This document shows, one piece after another, positions 1-52,732 of a stretch of DNA of 60,903 bases; positions within the stretch are counted from its first letter, which is position 1; every line of letters starts with the position of its first letter. A model generated the notes under the pieces. That model searched no databases, was not told the DNA's origin, and saw only the letters and a program-made list of their open reading frames with translations. This DNA is from a virus. A program made the translations under genes and the position numbers. Location of the stretch: the IMG/VR virus record IMGVR_UViG_3300009703_000001. One strand, written 5' to 3'.

Positions 1-123
1 AGAAAAGAAGGTAAGTCACCATCAGGTGGATTAAATCAAAAAGGAAGAGACAGTTACAAAGGTGGAACTTTAAAAGCACCTACAAAATCTAAAACAAGCG
101 GAAGAAGAAAATCCTTCTGTGCT
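1..123. repeat. Terminal overlap: exact copy of 60781..60903 (circular or terminally redundant complete genome)
   Basis: All 123 bases are identical at both window ends; the overlap lies inside a CDS. Confidence 0.95.
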
Positions 124-219
124 AGAATGAGTGGTATGAAAAAGAAATTAACATCAGCTAAAACTGCAAGAGATCCAAATTCTAGAATTAATAAATCACT
201 AAGAAAGTGGGACTGTTAA
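1..219 (+). CDS. 3' part of a small basic protein that wraps around the window ends (starts at 60721)
   Basis: Frame continues from 60721..60903 through the overlap to TAA 217-219 (about 92 aa; ...KSFCARMSGMKKKLTSAKT...). Confidence 0.6.
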   Translation, partial: RKEGKSPSGGLNQKGRDSYKGGTLKAPTKSKTSGRRKSFCARMSGMKKKLTSAKTARDPNSRINKSLRKWDC

Positions 220-220
220 A

Positions 221-430
221 ATGATCGAAACAGTTTTTGCACTTCTGATGTTTGTAAACGGAGAAATTAAAGAACACCGTATCCAGCCCTCGATGGGAAT
301 TTGTTTGCGCGGGAAACGTGAAGCGGAGAGAACCTACAGTGAAAGTGTAACCTATAAATGCATCAAGGCTAAGGCTGAAACAGAGATTTATATGGGTGAA
401 AAATCAATTAAAAAAATAATCCTTGAATAA
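221..430 (+). CDS. hypothetical protein (69 aa)
   Basis: ORF starting 2 nt after the previous stop; locally GC-richer; no recognisable motif. Confidence 0.4.
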   Translation: MIETVFALLMFVNGEIKEHRIQPSMGICLRGKREAERTYSESVTYKCIKAKAETEIYMGEKSIKKIILE

Positions 431-522
431 AAAAAATCCAATAGCTAAAATCCTTAGAGATAGGAGATATAAACAAACTATTATTAAAAATAAAAAAATA
501 TATAATAGAAAGGAGAAACAAC

Positions 523-1020
523 ATGAAACTATCAAAAAATTTCAGTTTAGCAGAGCTAACTAAATCACAAACTGCTGAACGTATGGGGTTAAATAATTCC
601 CCAAATGAAGATCAAACTGAAAATTTAAGACTCTTATGTGAAAGAGTTTTACAACCAGTACGTGATCATTTTGACGATGTAGTAACTATTAGTTCAGGAT
701 TCCGCGACCCTATTTTGTCAGCTAAAATTGGCAGTTCAAGCAAATCGCAACATTGCAAAGGAGAAGCGGCTGATTTTGAAATCTTTGGAGTTCCTAATAA
801 TGAGGTCAGCGATTGGATCAAAGAAAATTTAATGTTTGATCAGTTGATTCTCGAGTACTTTACTCCTGGCGAACCTAATTCAGGATGGGTACATGTCTCA
901 TACAATAAAGATATTAATTTAAATAGAAAAGAATATTTAATGGCTATTAAAGATGAGAATGGAAAAACTCAATATAAACCAATACTAGGTTTATCTACGG
1001 ATAGATACATTAAGTCCTAA
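523..1020 (+). CDS. Endolysin, peptidase M15 (zinc D-Ala-D-Ala carboxypeptidase fold)
   Basis: SQHCKGEAADF (H-x6-D) and GWVHVS zinc-ligand motifs; N-terminal FSLAELTKSQTA typical of M15-type phage lysins; AGGAG upstream. Confidence 0.8.
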   Translation: MKLSKNFSLAELTKSQTAERMGLNNSPNEDQTENLRLLCERVLQPVRDHFDDVVTISSGFRDPILSAKIGSSSKSQHCKGEAADFEIFGVPNNEVSDWIKENLMFDQLILEYFTPGEPNSGWVHVSYNKDINLNRKEYLMAIKDENGKTQYKPILGLSTDRYIKS

Positions 1021-1549: not shown

Positions 1550-1799
1550 GAAAACAAAAAGACCAAAAAGAGGCGGAGGCCCCGATTGGATCAATACCCA
1601 CGAACCAGGCCCTATGGGTAATCCTCCAGTGATGGAAAAAATAGATAATATGAGAGAATTTATGATTGCAAATCCAGGTATTGAAGATGTTGCCGATTAT
1701 AGTTCAATTTATGGTAAACCAAAAAAGAAATTAAAAAAATCAAAAAAAGCTAATGGCGGTTTTATTTCTGTTAGTGAATATGTAGAAGACATAATTTAA
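1542..1799 (+). CDS. lysine-rich small protein
   Basis: Overlaps the upstream stop; basic; ends ...NGGFISVSEYVEDII. Confidence 0.6.
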   Translation: MGKKTKRPKRGGGPDWINTHEPGPMGNPPVMEKIDNMREFMIANPGIEDVADYSSIYGKPKKKLKKSKKANGGFISVSEYVEDII

Positions 1800-2182
1800 T
1801 GGGTAAAAAAATTAAAATATTACCTGATTATTTAAAGAAAAAAGCGAAAGGTATTACAGTAAGTGGTGGTGCAGGAGTTTATACGGATGAGTATGTAAAT
1901 GAACCTAGTGGAAGTATAACTTTTTCAAAAGGAAAAACTAGCGTAACAGGAAGTGCTTCAAAACCTTACCTAAAAGATAGTAAACAAAATCTTAATAGTA
2001 CTTTAGGTTTAAAAATTACAAAACATGGTAATAAAAGCGCTTTTAGTGTTGAAGGCTCTAAAACAGGTAAAAGTAAAAACCTAGGTATTAGTTTTACAAA
2101 AACTTTTAGCCATGGTGGTGAAGCAAGAGTTCGAGGATCGGGAGTAGCAATTAAAGGTACTTCCTTTAAAGGAATATTCTAA
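1799..2182 (+). CDS. lysine-rich small protein
   Basis: TAATG overlap; ends ...VRGSGVAIKGTSFKGIF. Confidence 0.6.
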   Translation: MGKKIKILPDYLKKKAKGITVSGGAGVYTDEYVNEPSGSITFSKGKTSVTGSASKPYLKDSKQNLNSTLGLKITKHGNKSAFSVEGSKTGKSKNLGISFTKTFSHGGEARVRGSGVAIKGTSFKGIF

Positions 2183-2247
2183 TGTGGAGGTGATTTACTC
2201 TACTCTATTAGAATGATATTATAAGAGTAAAATTAAGGAGAAATAAC

Positions 2248-34342: not shown

Positions 34343-34500
34343 ATTATATTAAAGAAAAAAAATTAATTAAAAAATACTCTGACCAATGGCGTAAAGATAA
34401 TGGGTACAAAGATTTTCTGGAAGAAGCGGAAAAGGAAAAAGCAGAATTAAACGAGTCCTATAAAGAATCAAAAAGACAAGCTGAAGAGAGAAAGAAATGA
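34339..34500 (+). CDS. small hypothetical protein (53 aa)
   Basis: Hand-translated MNYIKEKKLIKKYSDQWRKDNGYK...; ATGA coupling. Confidence 0.35.
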   Translation: MNYIKEKKLIKKYSDQWRKDNGYKDFLEEAEKEKAELNESYKESKRQAEERKK

Positions 34501-34576
34501 ATAAAATATTTTTTATTATTTTTGCATCATTAGGGTTAATTACTTTATTAGCTTTATATATGCTAATTGTAGTATT

Positions 34577-35965
34577 ATGAAAAAATTAAAGATTTTAGAT
34601 TTATTTAGTGGAATAGGTGGATTTAGTTTAGGGTTACATTCTACGGGAGCGTTTGAAACAATTAAATTTGTTGAAAAAGATCCTTATTGTATTAAAGTAT
34701 TAAATAAGAATTTTCCAAACATACCCATTGAGGAGGATATAAAAAATGTCAAAGGAAAAGAATTCGAAGCAGATGTCATTACTGGAGGATTTCCCTGCCA
34801 ACCAATGTCAGTCGCAGGAAACCAAAAAGGAACAAGTGACGACAGATATCTCTGGCCAGACATGTTTAGAATCATTAGGGAAGTCAAACCCCAATTCGTT
34901 ATTGGGGAAAATGTGCAAGGAATTATTAACATCCAAGACGGCATGGTACTCCGACAGGTGCAAGATGACTTGGAAGGTGAAGGTTTCGAAGTCCAATGTT
35001 TCCTTATTCCAGCTTCAGGCATCGGTGCTTGGCACAAAAGGAACAGAGTTTGGATTATTGGCCACTCCAAACACAATGGATTACTTGCCGCCGAGAAGCG
35101 CTGCAGGGACCAAGAAATTAATGGAGGGTCACAGGAAGGGCAGAACCAAACCATCGAATCTGAGAGAACAAGTGGATCCAGAGACAATGAGAATGTATCC
35201 AACTCCATCAGCACAGGAGGCGGGAGAAGGAGAGTTTCTAGAAACGTTGACGAGCAAGGATGGAACACCTTTAAAACCGAACGAGAGAGCTTACAACCCA
35301 AAGACAAACAAACACGTCCAAATAACATTAAACAGAGCAGTGAAGATGTATCCAACACCACAGAGATCAGATCATCTAGCGAATCAATCGGAGACATTGG
35401 AAGCTTGGAAGAAGAGAGCAGCAGAGAAAAAAAAAGAGGGAATCAATCTTCAGTTTGCATTGAGACACGCAGTTCAAATGTATCCAACTCCACAAGTGGA
35501 CGATTCAAAAAATGTGAACCCCTCTCCCAAGAGAAGAATGACTCTAGCAAAACATGTGAAGATGTATCCAACACCGACAGTGGGTTGCGAGGAAGGGGGA
35601 GAACAATCAAGCAGAGTGGAGCAAACCAAATCTGGAGCTTTTATCCTAAGAAAGAAGAACAAACCCGACTCGACATTCGGAGCAAAACTATCAGACGCGA
35701 TGCTGTATTTGGAGAAAAACAAAATGTTACCCACTCCAACAGTGAACGACAGCAAGAACAACGCAGGGCCGAGTCAATACAAAAGAAAAGGGACGAATCT
35801 CAATGTAGCAGTTGGTGGAAAATTGAATCCGACTTTCGTGGAGTTCCTCATGGGATTTCCTATGAATTGGACAAAGGTAGAGTTAACCGAATCAAAGCCC
35901 TCGGCAACGCAATTGTCCCACAAATCGCAAGAGAAATAGGGCTTGCTATCAAAAAAGTCCTATAA
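34577..35965 (+). CDS. dcm: DNA (cytosine-5)-methyltransferase, frame A (462-aa ORF)
   Basis: Motif I LFSGIGGF, IV GGFPCQP, VI GENV, VIII-like HKRNRVWIIG, X ALGNAIVPQ; middle about 270 codons are low complexity. Confidence 0.8.
   Translation: MKKLKILDLFSGIGGFSLGLHSTGAFETIKFVEKDPYCIKVLNKNFPNIPIEEDIKNVKGKEFEADVITGGFPCQPMSVAGNQKGTSDDRYLWPDMFRIIREVKPQFVIGENVQGIINIQDGMVLRQVQDDLEGEGFEVQCFLIPASGIGAWHKRNRVWIIGHSKHNGLLAAEKRCRDQEINGGSQEGQNQTIESERTSGSRDNENVSNSISTGGGRRRVSRNVDEQGWNTFKTERESLQPKDKQTRPNNIKQSSEDVSNTTEIRSSSESIGDIGSLEEESSREKKRGNQSSVCIETRSSNVSNSTSGRFKKCEPLSQEKNDSSKTCEDVSNTDSGLRGRGRTIKQSGANQIWSFYPKKEEQTRLDIRSKTIRRDAVFGEKQNVTHSNSERQQEQRRAESIQKKRDESQCSSWWKIESDFRGVPHGISYELDKGRVNRIKALGNAIVPQIAREIGLAIKKVL
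34746..35939 (+). CDS. +1-frame ORF nested in dcm (397 aa) with M[YL]PTP repeats; coding status unresolved
   Basis: LLATPNTMD, 4x MYPTP plus MLPTP, C-terminal NPTFVEFLMGFPMNWT; kept open against expectation. Confidence 0.5.
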   Translation: MSKEKNSKQMSLLEDFPANQCQSQETKKEQVTTDISGQTCLESLGKSNPNSLLGKMCKELLTSKTAWYSDRCKMTWKVKVSKSNVSLFQLQASVLGTKGTEFGLLATPNTMDYLPPRSAAGTKKLMEGHRKGRTKPSNLREQVDPETMRMYPTPSAQEAGEGEFLETLTSKDGTPLKPNERAYNPKTNKHVQITLNRAVKMYPTPQRSDHLANQSETLEAWKKRAAEKKKEGINLQFALRHAVQMYPTPQVDDSKNVNPSPKRRMTLAKHVKMYPTPTVGCEEGGEQSSRVEQTKSGAFILRKKNKPDSTFGAKLSDAMLYLEKNKMLPTPTVNDSKNNAGPSQYKRKGTNLNVAVGGKLNPTFVEFLMGFPMNWTKVELTESKPSATQLSHKSQEK

Positions 35966-36050
35966 AATAAGTGATTGCAAAGTTATCTGAGGTCATTAGA
36001 TTTTGGTCTGATTGGCAATAAAGTCAATCATAACTTAATATGGAGACCTT

Positions 36051-47211: not shown

Positions 47212-47694
47212 ATGGGAAAATTAAGTAAAAAACTAAAAAGAGCAGCAATGGTAGGCGCAGGTCTTTATGCGGCAAACAAAGCAATGACTGGCTCTATAGG
47301 TAGACATCAAGCCTCAAAAAGTTTAGCAGGTGATAAGTTTGCTAAAGCAAGAAAGGTGATGACATCTAACAAAGCATATACAGGAAAACCTGGAATGCTA
47401 TCTAAAAGTATGGGTATGGATAAAAAAGCAAGTCCGATTAAAATATTAGCGGATGAATCTAGAACTAATCTAAATCCAAGAACTAGAGGTGGGCAGCTAA
47501 ATAGAATGAAACTATGGCAAGCTAAACAGAAAGCACTTGACGCAGCTAAACCAAAGAGCACTGTGAAACCAAGAGGCGGAGGTCATCCACTAAGAAGAGG
47601 AAGCTATCGAGCTAAAGGTGGAGTCATTAAAGCGCGTGGTGGTGTTATGGTTAATACTAAACTAAATGGTAAATTATACACAGAAACTTTCTAA
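47212..47694 (+). CDS. basic small protein
   Basis: SD GGAG; Lys/Arg/Gly-rich, resembling the 1133-2673 set. Confidence 0.55.
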   Translation: MGKLSKKLKRAAMVGAGLYAANKAMTGSIGRHQASKSLAGDKFAKARKVMTSNKAYTGKPGMLSKSMGMDKKASPIKILADESRTNLNPRTRGGQLNRMKLWQAKQKALDAAKPKSTVKPRGGGHPLRRGSYRAKGGVIKARGGVMVNTKLNGKLYTETF

Positions 47695-50108
47695 TGGCTG
47701 AAGTCGATAAAGCAATCATTGCTGAAGAAGAAATTTCTTCAGATGGAGAAACTGAAAAAGAAGTAGATGTTGAAATAGAAGGATCGGAAGGTCCTTCTGT
47801 TATCGAGACTGTTCTTTCGGTAGAGGAAGAATTTCATCAAAATCTTGCAGAAGAATTATCTGAAGATGTTCTTCAAAGAATGTCTAATCAATTGCTAGAC
47901 GAATATAAACGAGATAGAGTTTCACGAAAAGATTGGGAAACTTCTTATACTAATAATTTAGATTTATTAGGTTTAAATACTAGAGAAAGAACTAGACCTT
48001 TTAGAGGGTCAGCTTCTGTAACACATCCATTACTTTCAGAAGCAGTTACACAATTTCAAGCACAAGCATATAAAGAATTACTTCCTTCTTCAGGACCTGT
48101 TAAGAGTAAAGTTTTAGGAGTTGAAGATGAAGCTAAAATGAATCAAGCTGCTCGGGTTCAAGATTTCATGAATTATATGATTACTGAAAAAATGGAAGAA
48201 TATACTCCAGAGTTTGATCAATTATTATTTTATTTAGCCCTAGCAGGTTCGGCATTTAAAAAAGTTTATTATGATGAAGTAATGCAAAGAGCTGTTTCTA
48301 AATTTATTCCTGCAGAAGACTTAGTAGTTCCTTATTATGCAACCGATTTATTAGAGTGTGAAAGAATTACCCATGTTATTAAAATGGGAGAAAATGATAT
48401 TCTTAAAAAACAAGCTGTAGGGTTTTATAGAGATATTGAATTAAAACCATTATCTACAGGAGTCACACAAATTGAAAAAAAATACCAAGAGCTAGAAGGA
48501 ATTACACCTTCAAGCGATAGACAGTATACATTCCAAGTTTTAGAAATGCATGTAGATTTAAATCTAGAAGAATTTGAAAATGCATCTGCTAATAAAGAAA
48601 AAGAAGTTAAGATTCCTTACATTGTAACAATTGATGAAGGTTCAGGAGAAATTTTATCTATTTATCGTAACTATTCACTTAATGATGAGTTTAAAAAAAG
48701 AAAAGAATACTTTGTACATTTTAAATTTTTACCAGGTTTAGGTTTTTATGGGTTTGGTTTAACTCATATGATTGGTGGTTTAAGTAGATCAGCTACACAA
48801 TCTTTAAGACAATTACTAGATGCAGGTACATTATCTAATTTACCAGCAGGATTTAAGTCTAGAGGAATAAGAATTAGAGATGATGATCAGCCTTTTCAAC
48901 CTGGAGAGTTTAGAGATGTAGATGCACCAGGTGGAAACATTAAAGATCAGTTTCAAATTTTACCATTTAAAGAACCTTCAGCTACATTATATCAATTAAT
49001 GGGCTTTGTTGTTCAAGCAGGTCAGAAGTTTGCAGCTATTACTAACATGGATGTTGGTAATGACATGCAAAATAGAGCTGTTGGTACTACGGTTGCGCTG
49101 TTGGAACGTGGTTCGAGAGTCATGACTGCTATACATAAAAGATGTTATTACTCTATGAAAAGAGAATTTAGACTTTTATCTAAAGTTTTTGGAGAATATT
49201 TACCCCCACTTTATCCATATACAGTATATGGTGCCGATCAAGCAGTTAAACAAACAGATTTTGATAATAGAGTAGATGTTTTACCAGTTGCTGATCCTAA
49301 TATTATGTCTATGGCACAAAGAGTAACTTTAGCTAATGAAAATTTAAAAATTGCTATGTCTAATCCTTTAATGCATAATTTAAGAGAAGCATATCGTAGA
49401 GTATATGAAGCATTAGGGACGCAAGATATAGATCAATTATTAATTCCACAAGAACAACCTACTCCTAAAGACCCTGCAACAGAAAATAGAGAAGCTTTAA
49501 TGCAAAAACCATTATATGCTTTTCCCGAACAAGATCATCAAGCACATATTACTGCGCATAGAGCATTTATGTCGACAAGAATGGTACAAATTAATCCACA
49601 AGTCTCTTCAGCATTACAAGCACATATTTCGGAACATGTTTCAATGTTAGCAGGTCAACAAATTGGTGCTTTAATTGCACAAGATCCAATGATGCAACAA
49701 AAATTACAGATGGATCCTGAAGGAGCAAAGGTTCAAATTAATTCTATGATTGCTCAAAAGATAGCTCAATTAACTCTTGAACTTGCTGAAAGTGAAGCTA
49801 TGGGACAACAACAAGATCCATTGGTTGCATTAAAGCAACAAGAATTAGATATTAAAGCATTAGACCTACAAAGAAAATCAGAACAAGATATGATGTCTAA
49901 TGAAATTAGAGAAAATGAAATAGATGAAAAATTAGATGTGGAAAAAATGAAATTAGAAAATAATGAAGATCAAGCTGCAGAAAGAATTAGAATTGCAGAT
50001 CAAAAATTAAAACAAACTAGAGATATTGCTGAAGCTCGTTTACAAGTTGAGAAAATGAAACGAACTGCAGAAGATCGTAGAACAAAAGAACAAGGTAAGA
50101 AAAAATAA
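47694..50108 (+). CDS. portal protein
   Basis: 804 aa just downstream of terL; acidic N-terminus, coiled-coil basic C-terminus; call rests on size and synteny. Confidence 0.7.
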   Translation: MAEVDKAIIAEEEISSDGETEKEVDVEIEGSEGPSVIETVLSVEEEFHQNLAEELSEDVLQRMSNQLLDEYKRDRVSRKDWETSYTNNLDLLGLNTRERTRPFRGSASVTHPLLSEAVTQFQAQAYKELLPSSGPVKSKVLGVEDEAKMNQAARVQDFMNYMITEKMEEYTPEFDQLLFYLALAGSAFKKVYYDEVMQRAVSKFIPAEDLVVPYYATDLLECERITHVIKMGENDILKKQAVGFYRDIELKPLSTGVTQIEKKYQELEGITPSSDRQYTFQVLEMHVDLNLEEFENASANKEKEVKIPYIVTIDEGSGEILSIYRNYSLNDEFKKRKEYFVHFKFLPGLGFYGFGLTHMIGGLSRSATQSLRQLLDAGTLSNLPAGFKSRGIRIRDDDQPFQPGEFRDVDAPGGNIKDQFQILPFKEPSATLYQLMGFVVQAGQKFAAITNMDVGNDMQNRAVGTTVALLERGSRVMTAIHKRCYYSMKREFRLLSKVFGEYLPPLYPYTVYGADQAVKQTDFDNRVDVLPVADPNIMSMAQRVTLANENLKIAMSNPLMHNLREAYRRVYEALGTQDIDQLLIPQEQPTPKDPATENREALMQKPLYAFPEQDHQAHITAHRAFMSTRMVQINPQVSSALQAHISEHVSMLAGQQIGALIAQDPMMQQKLQMDPEGAKVQINSMIAQKIAQLTLELAESEAMGQQQDPLVALKQQELDIKALDLQRKSEQDMMSNEIRENEIDEKLDVEKMKLENNEDQAAERIRIADQKLKQTRDIAEARLQVEKMKRTAEDRRTKEQGKKK

Positions 50109-51304: not shown

Positions 51305-52732
51305 GTGAAAATAATTATAGTAGGAGGCGGTACAGCGGGGCTAATAGCAGCTTTAACTCTAAAAAGTCGTTTTAATAACTTTAATATAAATATAATTAAG
51401 TCGGATAAAATTGGAATAGTGGGGGTCGGGGAAGGGACTACTGAACATTGGAGAGAGTTTTGTGAGTTTAATAAAATTTCTATCTCTGAACTTATTAAAG
51501 AAACGGATGCAACCTTTAAATATGGTATTATGTTTGAAAATTGGACTAATCATACTTATTTTCATAATGTAGAATACCACTTATCTAAACTAAAGTTTGG
51601 TCAATATTTATCAGGCTTTGGTTATTGTATAAAAAATAAATTACAATCCAAAGAATATACAGATAAATCGTGTTGGGATAATAAAATTTCTCTTACCGAC
51701 CTTCCTAATCAATTTCATTTTAATACCTATAAGTTAAATGAATATTTGTTAAATAAATGTAAATCTAGAGGAATAAAAATATTTGAAGATGAAATTAATA
51801 ATATAATTAATGATGAAGAAGGAAATATTAAATATATTGAAGGTAATTTAAAATATAATGCCGATTTTTTTATTGATTGTACAGGTTTTAAGAAAAAATT
51901 AATTACTTCTTTAGGAGCAACATGGATTTCATATAAAAAATATTTACCAATGAATGAAGCGATAGCGTTTCCGACTGAAGATACAGATGAATATACCCCT
52001 TATACTCTTGCAAAAGCTATGAAAGCGGGTTGGATGTGGAGAATTCCTACTAATGGACGGTGGGGAAATGGTTATGTTTTTAACAATAATTATATTTCTG
52101 CTGCTGAAGCTCAACTTGAATGTGAACATTATTTAAATAAAAAAATTACTATTGGTAAAAATATTAAATTTGAAGCAGGTTATGTGGATAAAGTGTGGAT
52201 AAAAAACTGCGTAGCAATAGGATTAAGTTCAAGTTTTATTGAACCACTCGAAGCATCTTCTATAGGTACCTCCATTGCACAATCATTTTTATTAATGCAT
52301 TTAATCGTAAACTACTCAGCGTCTGATATTAATTTATATAATAAAAAGTTTATTGAGATTGTAGAAAATATAAGAGACTTTGTTTTGCTCCATTATTTAT
52401 GTAAAAAAAATGATTCACCTTTTTGGAAAAATTTTAAACCATGTCTTCCTTTATCTTTAATTAATAAATTAGACAAGTGGAAATATAGACTTCCTATTCA
52501 AGAAGATTTTGAAAATAATTATTTATTATTTACTCAAGAAAACTTTACTATTATTCTTAAAGAATTAGAATTATTTGATCTTAAATATATTGAAAAAGAA
52601 TATGAATCGTTGTCGGAAAATCTCAAGAATTATACAGAGGCTCAAATGAGAAATTTTCATCTCAAACCAATTAAATCAATAAGTCATAAAAAATATTTAA
52701 ATAATATTAATGATCCATCCACTCAATATTAA
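51305..52732 (+). CDS. flavin-dependent (tryptophan-type) halogenase homologue
   Basis: IIIVGGGTAG (GxGxxG), GVGEGT, GWMWRIP (WxWxIP), SFIEPLEASSIG; GTG start. Confidence 0.75.
   Translation: MKIIIVGGGTAGLIAALTLKSRFNNFNINIIKSDKIGIVGVGEGTTEHWREFCEFNKISISELIKETDATFKYGIMFENWTNHTYFHNVEYHLSKLKFGQYLSGFGYCIKNKLQSKEYTDKSCWDNKISLTDLPNQFHFNTYKLNEYLLNKCKSRGIKIFEDEINNIINDEEGNIKYIEGNLKYNADFFIDCTGFKKKLITSLGATWISYKKYLPMNEAIAFPTEDTDEYTPYTLAKAMKAGWMWRIPTNGRWGNGYVFNNNYISAAEAQLECEHYLNKKITIGKNIKFEAGYVDKVWIKNCVAIGLSSSFIEPLEASSIGTSIAQSFLLMHLIVNYSASDINLYNKKFIEIVENIRDFVLLHYLCKKNDSPFWKNFKPCLPLSLINKLDKWKYRLPIQEDFENNYLLFTQENFTIILKELELFDLKYIEKEYESLSENLKNYTEAQMRNFHLKPIKSISHKKYLNNINDPSTQY

What the first reader, a model, noticed from the sequence alone, without database searches (positions are those of the whole stretch)
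34577..35965. C5-methyltransferase locus read in two frames: motifs split between a 462-aa ORF and a nested +1-frame 397-aa ORF
Frame A (34577..35965) carries C5-MTase motifs I (LFSGIGGF), IV (GGFPCQP), VI (GENV) and VIII-like (HKRNRVWIIG). It also carries motif X (ALGNAIVPQ) at the extreme C-terminus. The roughly 270 codons in between are low-complexity S/N/R/E/Q-rich sequence. The +1 frame (frame B, 34746..35939) is open over the same DNA and reads there like a folded, motif-bearing protein. It has LLATPNTMD at 35056 and five spaced M[YL]PTP units with ATGs at 35193, 35346, 35478, 35562 and 35724. The 11-mer ATGTATCCAAC recurs four times. Frame B ends with GGKLNPTFVEFLMGFPMNWT. The same 11-mer reads [DN]VSN[ST] in frame A. 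By hand count, about 45 frame-B codons between 35060 and 35880 end in T. None is followed by AA, AG or GA, which would create a frame-A stop. About one third of the codons there begin that way, so the naive expectation is more than 10 stops. Conversely, no frame-A xTA or xTG codon is followed by the base that would stop frame B. Other off-frame ORFs in this window rarely exceed about 110 codons. Three explanations are possible: a genuine overlapping gene inside dcm; an A->B->A recoded methyltransferase whose target-recognition region is frame B; or an old pair of compensating indels. From memory only, both sequence styles occur in annotated phage Dcm-like proteins. WPTPTA written with CCA/ACA codons reads xANTNS one base earlier, so the dual reading could be general to the family. 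I cannot verify this without a database.
Basis: partly seen in the sequence, partly recalled or inferred. Interest (0 to 1): 0.9.

Follow-up and report, generated by a model that had tools for sequence, protein, structure and literature searches.

The report
Split methyltransferase encoded in two frames
One stretch of this marine phage's DNA encodes two proteins in two reading frames, most likely the two halves of one DNA cytosine methyltransferase; thousands of phages and prophages share the layout, but databases and a 2022 enzyme study missed the second protein.

Summary
ORF A (34577..35965, 462 aa) and the nested +1 ORF B (34746..35939, 397 aa) are both open. Synonymous shuffles of either frame always put stops in the other (0 of 5000 stop-free).

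In 71 of 76 related viral loci, and 59 of 80 loci from diverse bacterial genomes, the same pair is open. Purifying selection passes from frame to frame:
- A alone before 34746.
- Both frames over motifs IV-VIII.
- B alone over the MYPTP modules and motif IX, where A is neutral but never interrupted.
- A alone over motif X.

B has a conserved ATG with a Shine-Dalgarno 8 nt upstream. This rules out indels. It argues strongly against A->B->A recoding.

The best reading is a two-subunit C5-methyltransferase:
- Alpha (A) carries motifs I-VIII, a passenger linker and motif X.
- Beta (B) carries an N-domain, six PTP modules and motif IX.

The precedent is M.EcoHK31I (1995), whose beta lies in another frame inside alpha. 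New here are the size of the family (more than 17,000 clusters, no Pfam or NCBIfam model for beta), the modular beta, and a hidden beta ORF in the characterised enzyme M.BatI. Subunit assembly is inferred, not shown.

The parts
34577..35965 (+). ORF A, putative alpha subunit (462 aa). It carries C5-MTase motifs I-VIII, a linker of about 270 aa, and motif X.
   Evidence: PF00145 1.2e-48, residues 4-459 on profile 1-323/324. phrog_363 3.7e-70. The exact protein is called as a gene in JGI and ENA data.
34601..34624 (+). Motif I, LFSGIGGF (frame A), the SAM-binding loop.
   Evidence: Read from the sequence. Aligned to M.HhaI FAGLGGF.
34730..34737 (+). Shine-Dalgarno GAGGAGGA for ORF B, 8 nt upstream of its ATG. 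It lies in the A codons for E-E-D (motif III region).
   Evidence: GAGGAGGA or GAAGGAGA plus ATG sits at the same place in 55 of 57 distinct related loci. 20 of 44 genes in the window use a GGAG-type SD.
34746..35939 (+). ORF B, putative beta subunit (397 aa), in the +1 frame and wholly nested in A (1194-nt overlap).
   Evidence: The exact protein is called as a gene in ENA (P0001). phrog_1008 4e-33. No Pfam or NCBIfam model.
34746..35054 (+). B N-terminal domain (103 aa), co-encoded with A motifs IV (34784..34804), VI (34904..34915) and VIII (35033..35062).
   Evidence: Both frames are constrained: A dNN/dSN 0.19, B dNN/dNS 0.34, dSN/dSS 0.27. The rate at sites synonymous in A falls from 1.03 to 0.27. 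A fictitious-frame control gives 0.90 and 0.81. Homologous to the C72C1 B N-terminus, E 5e-13.
35055..35813 (+). Six PTP modules of B, starting at 35055, 35193, 35346, 35478, 35562 and 35724. In frame A the same bases give a low-complexity linker.
   Evidence: B dNN/dNS 0.17. A dNN/dSN 0.92 (per-pair median 1.06), so A is neutral yet never interrupted. The wobble position switches to B position 3 at about 35018-35080. Module number and order vary among relatives.
35814..35873 (+). Motif IX in frame B, GGKLNPTFVEFLMGFPMNWT.
   Evidence: B dNN/dNS 0.13-0.14. A dNN/dSN 1.2-1.3. Lines up with M.HhaI KLHPRECARVMGYPDSY and with in-frame motif IX of Moonbeam gp69.
35874..35939 (+). B tail and stop. 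It overlaps the A lead-in to motif X.
   Evidence: B dNN/dNS 0.86 (neutral). A dNN/dSN 0.135.
35897..35923 (+). Motif X in frame A, ALGNAIVPQ.
   Evidence: Aligned to M.HhaI QFGNSVV. The A-only 3' end has dN/dS 0.11.

Best explanation
The locus is a genuine pair of overlapping genes. Together they most likely encode a two-subunit DNA (cytosine-5) methyltransferase.

The two products
- Alpha is made from the ATG at 34577 in frame A. It holds the catalytic large-domain motifs I, IV, VI and VIII, then about 270 residues of unconstrained hydrophilic linker, then motif X.
- Beta is made from the internal ATG at 34746, which has a strong Shine-Dalgarno 8 nt upstream, in frame +1. It holds an N-terminal domain of about 100 aa, six tandem PTP modules and motif IX.
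- The alpha linker exists only because ribosomes must read through the beta-coding DNA in frame A to reach motif X.

How it would work (inferred)
- Beta supplies the small domain that alpha lacks: the target-recognition part plus motif IX. The two chains assemble on DNA into a complete enzyme.
- As an orphan enzyme in the phage replication module, it would methylate phage DNA against host restriction.

Shown
- Both frames are open, conserved and under purifying selection.
- The constraint passes from frame to frame.
- The beta start signal is conserved.
- The motifs are split in a complementary way between the two frames.

Inferred
- That both products are translated.
- That the two chains bind each other.
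- That the modules recognise DNA.
- The biological role.
For: 1. Double openness is not chance. 0 of 5000 shuffles were stop-free in either direction, and the third frame has 36 stops.

2. The pair is conserved.
- 71 of 76 IMG/VR loci have A (motifs I to X) and B (+1) both open, although A varies from about 350 to 510 aa and B holds 1-6 PTP motifs. Four of the other five are cut by contig ends.
- 59 of 80 loci from many bacterial phyla show the same +1 nesting.
- It is also present in phages C72C1, S-H1, SOVA965, K1G and Bloom and in a B. thuringiensis plasmid.

3. Selection, from an OLGenie-like test on frame-agnostic DNA alignments.
- A-only 5' end: dN/dS 0.106.
- Motifs IV-VIII: A 0.19, B 0.34.
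- Modules: A 0.92, B 0.17.
- Motif IX: A 1.2-1.3, B 0.13.
- Motif X: A 0.135, B 0.86.
- B-only extension found in relatives: 0.067.
- A fictitious frame in the A-only region gives 0.90 and 0.81.

4. The beta ATG and its SD are conserved in 55 of 57 loci.

5. The motifs are collinear with a one-chain enzyme.
- A chimera of A, then the B modules with motif IX, then A motif X scores 180.0 bits on PF00145, against 166.7 for A alone.
- It aligns to M.HhaI residues 270-314.
- Moonbeam gp69 carries PTP modules, IX and X in one frame.

6. There is a precedent. M.EcoHK31I beta lies wholly in another frame of alpha, and both chains are required for activity (PMC2836561, PMC3404938).

7. M.BatI, which is active when its gene is cloned in E. 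coli, hides a B-family +1 ORF (hhalign 99.8 %, E 7e-30).
- Its two selected low-toxicity, reduced-activity mutations both hit that ORF.
- A98V (GCA to GTA) makes CAG into TAG in the +1 frame. The selection host carries glnV44, which reads amber as Gln.
- D75N (GAT to AAT) turns a TTG that lies 8 nt after GGAGG into TTA.
- This is my reading. It is an inference.
Against: - There is no direct evidence here that either product is made or that they bind each other.
- AlphaFold2 on beta alone gave low-confidence models (mean pLDDT 49.6 and 53.5), and Foldseek found nothing. The fold of the modules, and their identity with a target-recognition domain, is therefore untested.
- Profile searches of beta against PDB sequences found nothing. 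The motif IX alignment to M.HhaI is below threshold on its own.
- For M.EcoHK31I the literature places the predicted TRD in alpha, not beta.
- Two single-contig relatives have frame swaps (L084, L089).
- Two genomes carry an M.AquI-like layout with motif X in beta (L147, L169). Which chain carries X is therefore not fixed in the family.
Confidence: 0.8

Rival explanations
1. One polypeptide is made by two programmed ribosomal frameshifts: +1 near 35050 and -1 near 35880. It would read A (motifs I-VIII), then B (modules and IX), then A (motif X).
For: - The constraint follows exactly this A->B->A path.
- The A-B-A chimera is collinear with M.HhaI and scores 13 bits higher on PF00145 than A alone.
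Against: - B is also constrained for about 100 codons upstream of the supposed shift (0.34 and 0.27, against a control of 0.90 and 0.81).
- B has a conserved SD and ATG.
- Frame A stays open through neutral sequence in every complete locus. Recoding would not need that.
- In many relatives B continues in frame past motif X into a constrained extension (dN/dS 0.067).
- I saw no conserved slippery site. The AAAAGG at 35036 lies inside motif VIII and is absent from L089.
Confidence: 0.05
2. B is a real protein with a function of its own, such as DNA binding or anti-defence. It merely shares DNA with the methyltransferase and is not a subunit of it.
For: - The B N-domain has no counterpart in one-chain C5-MTases, and no family model matches B.
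- In M.BatI, toxicity is independent of catalysis.
- Moonbeam keeps an alternative-frame ORF like the B N-domain although its modules, IX and X are in the main frame.
Against: - B carries the one C5-MTase motif that A lacks (IX), at the collinear position and spacing.
- A has no constrained sequence between motifs VIII and X, so it has no small domain of its own.
- The EcoHK31I precedent shows that such a beta is required for activity.
Confidence: 0.1
3. The double frame is an artefact or a decayed gene: sequencing indels, or an old pair of compensating frameshifts in a pseudogene.
For: Isolated contigs do show frame swaps or fusions (L084, L089/P0034, P0024, P0131, P0220, KT997847).
Against: - The same two-frame layout recurs in hundreds of independent assemblies and in isolate genomes from many phyla.
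- Both frames are under strong purifying selection.
Confidence: 0.01

Closest known systems
M.EcoHK31I (E. coli HK31; Lee, Kam and Shaw 1995, as described in PMC2836561 and PMC3404938)
   Same: - It is a C5-MTase made of two polypeptides.
- Beta is encoded entirely in an alternative reading frame inside the alpha gene.
[quoted passage not shown]
- Both chains are needed for activity.
- The beta N-terminus matters for association.
   Different: - It belongs to a restriction-modification system, not to a phage orphan gene.
- The literature places the predicted TRD in alpha. Here the alpha stretch between motifs VIII and X evolves neutrally, and the only constrained candidate for target recognition is in beta.
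- The window's beta has six tandem modules and a 1194-nt overlap.
M.AquI (alpha with motifs I-VIII, beta with part of the variable region plus IX-X; PMC3404938)
   Same: It is a natural two-subunit C5-MTase split in the variable region. Two members of the B family (L147 Brevibacillus, L169) have this division: A stops after motif VIII, and B carries the modules, IX and X.
   Different: In the window motif X is in alpha, so alpha must be read through the whole beta-coding region.
Multispecific C5-MTases of Bacillus phages (SPR, phi3T, H2; cited in PMC8936443)
   Same: They are phage-borne orphan enzymes with several target-recognising domains in tandem between motifs VIII and IX. The array of distinct, reshuffled PTP modules in beta looks analogous.
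   Different: - They are single polypeptides.
- tblastn with frame B from 35046 to its end (the modules and motif IX) against the phage collection gave only 4 records, none a Bacillus phage, so no similarity to them was detected.
- Whether a PTP module is a TRD is untested.
M.BatI of a Bacillus anthracis prophage (PMC8936443)
   Same: - It belongs to the same family: an A-type gene with a hidden +1 ORF of the B family.
- It is enzymatically active (GCDGC) when the whole gene is expressed in E. coli.
   Different: - It has one PTP module, not six.
- It was published as a single small enzyme with an unusually short TRD. The nested ORF was not recognised.
One-chain relatives such as Mycobacterium phage Moonbeam gp69, and M.HhaI
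   Same: The motif order is the same: I-VIII, PTP modules, IX, X. Moonbeam has them in one frame. Motifs IX and X have the same spacing as in M.HhaI.
   Different: In the window the middle part is in another frame and is made as a separate protein with an extra N-domain.

Membership tests
DNA (cytosine-5) methyltransferase, PF00145 | Motifs I (FxGxG), IV (PCQ), VI (ENV), VIII (QxRxR) and X (GNxVP) in one chain | tested here: met
   All are in frame A. PF00145 1.2e-48 over the full profile, TIGR00675 1.1e-43, M.HhaI 1e-22.
DNA (cytosine-5) methyltransferase, PF00145 | Motif IX and a target-recognition domain between VIII and X in the same chain | tested here: not met
   Frame A between VIII and X is low-complexity and evolves neutrally (0.92 and 1.2-1.3). 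Motif IX is read only in frame B.
EcoHK31I-type two-subunit C5-MTase | The beta ORF lies entirely within the alpha gene in another frame | tested here: met
   B 34746..35939 lies inside A 34577..35965, in frame +1.
EcoHK31I-type two-subunit C5-MTase | Alpha carries motifs I-VIII and X; beta carries motif IX | tested here: met
   Constraint sits in the matching frame for each motif.
EcoHK31I-type two-subunit C5-MTase | The TRD lies in alpha (as predicted in the literature) | tested here: not met
   There is no amino-acid constraint on A between motifs VIII and X.
EcoHK31I-type two-subunit C5-MTase | Both polypeptides are made and both are required for methylation | not testable with these tools
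   Indirect only: the conserved SD and ATG, selection on both frames, and my reading of the M.BatI mutants.
EcoHK31I-type two-subunit C5-MTase | Sequence homology to M.EcoHK31I alpha and beta | not tested
   The 1995 paper is not held. No supplement holds the sequence. No named hit appeared.
AquI-type two-subunit C5-MTase | Beta carries both motif IX and motif X; alpha ends after VIII | tested here: not met
   In the window motif X is in A and A does not stop after VIII. The feature is met in relatives L147 and L169.
Programmed ribosomal frameshifting | A conserved slippery site at the frame junctions, with no independent start for the second frame | tested here: not met
   No conserved slippery heptamer was seen by eye. 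B has its own conserved SD and ATG, and is constrained upstream of the junction.
Multispecific phage C5-MTase | Several tandem TRDs, each conferring one target sequence | tested here: inconclusive
   Six distinct modules, reshuffled among relatives and under purifying selection. No structural or sequence link to known TRDs was found.

The most novel reading that the evidence does not exclude
The PTP modules of beta are interchangeable target-recognition units. Beta would then be a plug-in specificity subunit that makes a multispecific methyltransferase, with the window's enzyme covering up to six targets.

Nesting beta inside alpha would keep the two halves co-inherited and co-expressed. Every module gain or loss would have to leave the alpha frame stop-free.

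By extension, thousands of small phage 'Dcm' genes in databases, M.BatI among them, would be two-gene loci whose specificity subunit has gone unannotated.
Probability: 0.4. Interest if true: 0.8.

Novelty: new variant of a known kind. Interest (0 to 1): 0.7.

Why it matters
1. Long same-strand overlapping genes in phages and bacteria are rare and often disputed. This one is 1.2 kb long, has clean frame-by-frame selection signatures and hundreds of independent replicates, and its constraint visibly passes between frames. One frame is kept open purely as a passage to motif X.

2. The beta family is very large but has no Pfam or NCBIfam model.
- A profile search found 17,226 clusters at 50 % identity.
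- A second search found at least 7,373 homologues.
- Annotation pipelines call either A or B, so one half of the enzyme is usually missing from annotations.

3. It offers a new reading of published experiments. M.BatI was described as an unusually small enzyme with a very short TRD and unexplained toxicity. It carries the hidden beta ORF, and both selected attenuating mutations fall on features of that ORF. This can be tested with existing plasmids.

4. If the modules set specificity, the family is a natural kit for building methyltransferases with chosen targets, and a way for phages to escape many restriction systems.

Tried and rejected
Structure and family searches that found nothing
- AlphaFold2 of the window's B with 42 homologues gave mean pLDDT 49.6. 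A short relative, P0125, with 98 homologues gave 53.5. Only the N-domain (two helices and a hairpin) and one module reach 60-84.
- Foldseek of the second model against the PDB gave no match with E below 0.9.
- Profile searches of two B alignments against PDB sequences gave no hit up to E 10.
- Pfam and NCBIfam on five B proteins gave nothing.

Sources I could not reach
- The original M.EcoHK31I paper is not held. The Ostermeier-lab paper has no held supplement. Homology to EcoHK31I therefore stays untested.
- A scan of GTDB genomes aimed at B. anthracis did not return it among the best 80 loci. I took the M.BatI sequence from the paper's supplementary plasmid file and repaired two OCR base losses using the printed protein.

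Analyses that gave little
- Single-linkage clustering of modules lumped most of them into one cluster through the shared PTP motif. I use it only to show that architectures vary.
- Full-text searches found no paper linking phage Dcm genes to a nested subunit. The pair is annotated without comment in phage K1G and in Paenibacillus phages.

Ideas I dropped
- The minus-strand 237-aa ORF as a third gene: it is not conserved.
- The 27-aa upstream ORF as part of the system: it is not conserved.
- My first idea that the A-frame string opposite motif IX is only a shadow of IX throughout the family. It holds in the marine clade (A neutral). L147 and L169 carry a similar pre-X motif in frame 30 aa after IX, so I do not generalise it.
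Full report
**Observation**

The window holds ORF A (34577..35965, 462 aa) and, nested in its +1 frame, ORF B (34746..35939, 397 aa).
- A matches the C-5 cytosine methylase family PF00145 end to end (1.2e-48). B matches no Pfam family.
Motifs I, IV, VI, VIII and X are in A.
- Five M[YL]PTP units begin at 35193, 35346, 35478, 35562 and 35724, and a sixth (LLATP) begins at 35055.
- The 11-mer ATGTATCCAAC occurs four times against 0.01 expected.

The region is GC-raised and T-poor, but composition does not explain the double openness.
- Synonymous shuffles of A put a mean of 11.1 stops in frame B (minimum 4).
- Shuffles of B put a mean of 18.0 stops in frame A (minimum 9).
- None of 5000 shuffles was stop-free in either direction.
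- The third forward frame has 36 stops.

**The pair is conserved**

tblastn showed that distant phage methyltransferase genes carry a similar protein in their +1 frame. These include KT997847, C72C1, a gut phage scaffold, Stenotrophomonas phage SOVA965 and cyanophage S-H1. In SOVA965 the depositors annotated part of frame B and left frame A unannotated.

| Search | Result |
|---|---|
| Frame B against 5.8 billion proteins | 1621 homologues, 265-581 aa, none with a Pfam domain, differing in number and kind of PTP modules |
| B profile against 1.84 billion representatives | 17,226 hits at E <= 1e-3 |
| Short C72C1-type B | at least 7,373 homologues |
| IMG/VR loci with both motifs detected | 71 of 76 have A (motifs I to X) and B (+1) both open; 4 others are cut by contig ends |
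| Genomes of many bacterial phyla | 59 of 80 loci show the same nesting |

In the IMG/VR set A ranges from about 350 to 510 aa and B holds one to six PTP motifs. This excludes sequencing indels and a decayed pseudogene.

**Selection**

I wrote an OLGenie-like estimator. It classes each site by its effect in A and in B. I applied it to frame-agnostic pairwise DNA alignments of 55 distinct marine loci.

| Region | Frame A | Frame B |
|---|---|---|
| A-only 5' end | dN/dS 0.106 | - |
| Overlap with motifs IV-VIII | dNN/dSN 0.19 | dNN/dNS 0.34, dSN/dSS 0.27 |
| Modules | 0.92 (per-pair median 1.06) | 0.17 |
| Motif IX | 1.2-1.3 | 0.13-0.14 |
| Motif X | 0.135 | 0.86 |
| A-only 3' end | 0.11 | - |
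| B-only C-terminal extension (some relatives) | - | 0.067 |

- In the motif IV-VIII overlap, the rate at sites synonymous in A falls from 1.03 to 0.27. Sites silent in both frames stay at 0.98.
- A fictitious +1 frame in the A-only region gives 0.90 and 0.81, so the test is calibrated.
- Along the window, the fastest-evolving codon position changes from A position 3 to B position 3 at about 35018-35080.

**Two proteins, not recoding**

Four facts favour two separate products.
- B has a conserved ATG with GAGGAGGA or GAAGGAGA 8 nt upstream in 55 of 57 loci. This is one of the strongest Shine-Dalgarno sites in the window.
- B is constrained for about 100 codons upstream of the supposed shift point.
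- Frame A is held open through about 270 neutrally evolving codons in every complete locus. That only makes sense if ribosomes must traverse it in frame A to reach motif X.
- In many relatives B continues in its own frame beyond motif X into a constrained extension.

I saw no conserved slippery site.

**What the parts are**

A chimera of A(1-162), the B modules with motif IX, and the A motif X segment is collinear with M.HhaI.
- B's KLNPTFVEFLMGFPMNW lies on KLHPRECARVMGYPDSY (motif IX).
- A's ALGNAIV lies on QFGNSVV (motif X), with the same spacing.
- The chimera scores 180.0 bits on PF00145, against 166.7 for A alone. This is a modest gain.
- Mycobacteriophage Moonbeam gp69 has PTP modules, IX and X in one frame.

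B therefore supplies what A lacks. The modules are distinct in sequence, are shared between distant lineages, and are reshuffled among relatives. This recalls the tandem target-recognising domains of the multispecific Bacillus phage enzymes (PMC8936443). I could not confirm it. AlphaFold2 models of B alone were poor, and neither Foldseek nor PDB profile searches gave a match.

**Comparison with what is known**

[quoted passage not shown] Both are needed for activity (PMC2836561, PMC3404938).
- The window's locus matches these architectural features.
- It differs in the placement of the target-recognition function. Alpha's variable region is neutral here.
- It also differs in the multi-module beta and in being a phage orphan gene.
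- Homology to EcoHK31I could not be tested.

Two genomes in the B family (L147, L169) show the M.AquI-like split, with motif X in beta. The family therefore spans both known natural heterodimer types and one-chain forms.

The nested pair is already annotated as two CDS in phage K1G ('Mte8-like protein') and in Paenibacillus phages. I found no discussion of it. PHROGs holds both families (phrog_363 and phrog_1008). Pfam and NCBIfam have none for beta. Pipelines called A in some data sets and B in others for this very sequence.

**M.BatI**

The 2022 study of M.BatI describes a small prophage enzyme with motif I CxGxxG, a 'TRD shorter than a single TRD' and toxicity independent of catalysis.
- From the plasmid sequence in its supplement, the +1 frame of batIM encodes a protein of about 164 aa with the B N-domain, one LLATP module and INPQFVEWMMGLPQDWT.
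- hhalign against the B alignment gives 99.8 % probability and E 7e-30. An experimentally active enzyme therefore belongs to this family.
- Both attenuated mutants selected in that study map onto the hidden ORF.
- A98V (GCA to GTA) turns its CAG-30 into TAG. The selection host ER2796 carries glnV44, which reads amber as Gln.
- D75N (GAT to AAT) turns into TTA a TTG that lies 8 nt after GGAGG, a likely beta start.
- Both mutants kept methylation at a reduced level.

This is my inference from published data, not a demonstrated result. It is cheap to test.

**Verdict**

The locus is a genuine overlapping gene pair and most likely an EcoHK31I-like split C5-methyltransferase. Its beta subunit is modular, and the family it belongs to is very large and mostly unrecognised. 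I rate it a new variant of a known kind, with interest 0.7.

The subunit interaction, the role of the modules and the role of the B N-domain remain inferred.

One point is unexplained. L147 and L169 carry, in frame after motif IX, a pre-X motif similar to the A-frame string that nested genes encode on the same bases as IX.

Noticed in passing
window 34498..34581: A 27-aa hydrophobic ORF (MNKIFFIIFASLGLITLLALYMLIVVL) ends in an ATGA that overlaps the start codon of ORF A, which itself has no Shine-Dalgarno. This may be translational coupling. The ORF is not conserved upstream of the gene in related loci.
   Followed up: partly
window 34684..35397 (minus strand): A 237-aa antisense ORF lies over the same DNA. 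Among relatives the longest stop-free antisense run varies from 90 to 304 aa (141 aa in the closest relative), always in the same phase. It looks like a by-product of the T-poor doubly coding sequence.
   Followed up: yes
window 35427..35435: An A9 homopolymer lies inside the overlap (EKKKEG in B, REKKRG in A). Slippage of one base here would swap the two frames. The run is absent from the closest relative, L007.
   Followed up: partly
window 34700..36050: The methyltransferase locus is a compositional island, with GC 0.40-0.48 against 0.23-0.33 around it and AT skew up to +0.48. I did not resolve whether this reflects horizontal origin or the need to avoid stops in two frames.
   Followed up: no
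window 51305..52732: A 475-aa ORF matches a PHROG annotated as tryptophan halogenase (phrog_2928, 2.5e-103). It sits between the portal (47694..50108) and further late genes of this phage. That is an unusual auxiliary gene.
   Followed up: no
L005 1688..2062 (Mycobacterium phage Moonbeam): gp69 has PTP modules, IX and X in its main frame. Even so, an alternative-frame 124-aa ORF over motifs IV-VIII reads like the B N-domain plus a first PTP module (FAEYDPDTRSWK...TWPKTGYMSDGRAYEL...SSLPTPRGS). It resembles the cyanophage S-H1 B N-terminus. I did not test it for selection.
   Followed up: no
L147 1275..2418 and L169 1272..2571: These are M.AquI-like members of the family. A stops just after motif VIII (176-177 aa). 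B carries the N-domain, modules, IX and, about 30 aa later in the same frame, EP..PRVA.GV..R..R.K..GNAVVP (motif X). That pre-X string resembles the A-frame string which nested genes encode on the same bases as IX. Unexplained.
   Followed up: partly
batIM in pZE31-tetR-batIM, bases 112..891 (PMC8936443, S1 File): There is a hidden +1 ORF of the B family. The published attenuating mutations A98V and D75N correspond to an amber codon and to loss of a TTG preceded by GGAGG in that ORF. The selection host carries glnV44.
   Followed up: partly
L084 2200..3900 and L089 1308..2699: These single-contig variants have the two frames swapped by single-base indels. In L089 motif X is fused to B, and the B extension is a separate ORF. 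They may be assembly errors or natural frame-swap mutants.
   Followed up: partly
L004 1532..2257 (Stenotrophomonas phage SOVA965): The deposited annotation names part of frame B (1734..2234) 'DNA-cytosine methyltransferase'. It leaves the 241-aa catalytic frame A unannotated.
   Followed up: yes
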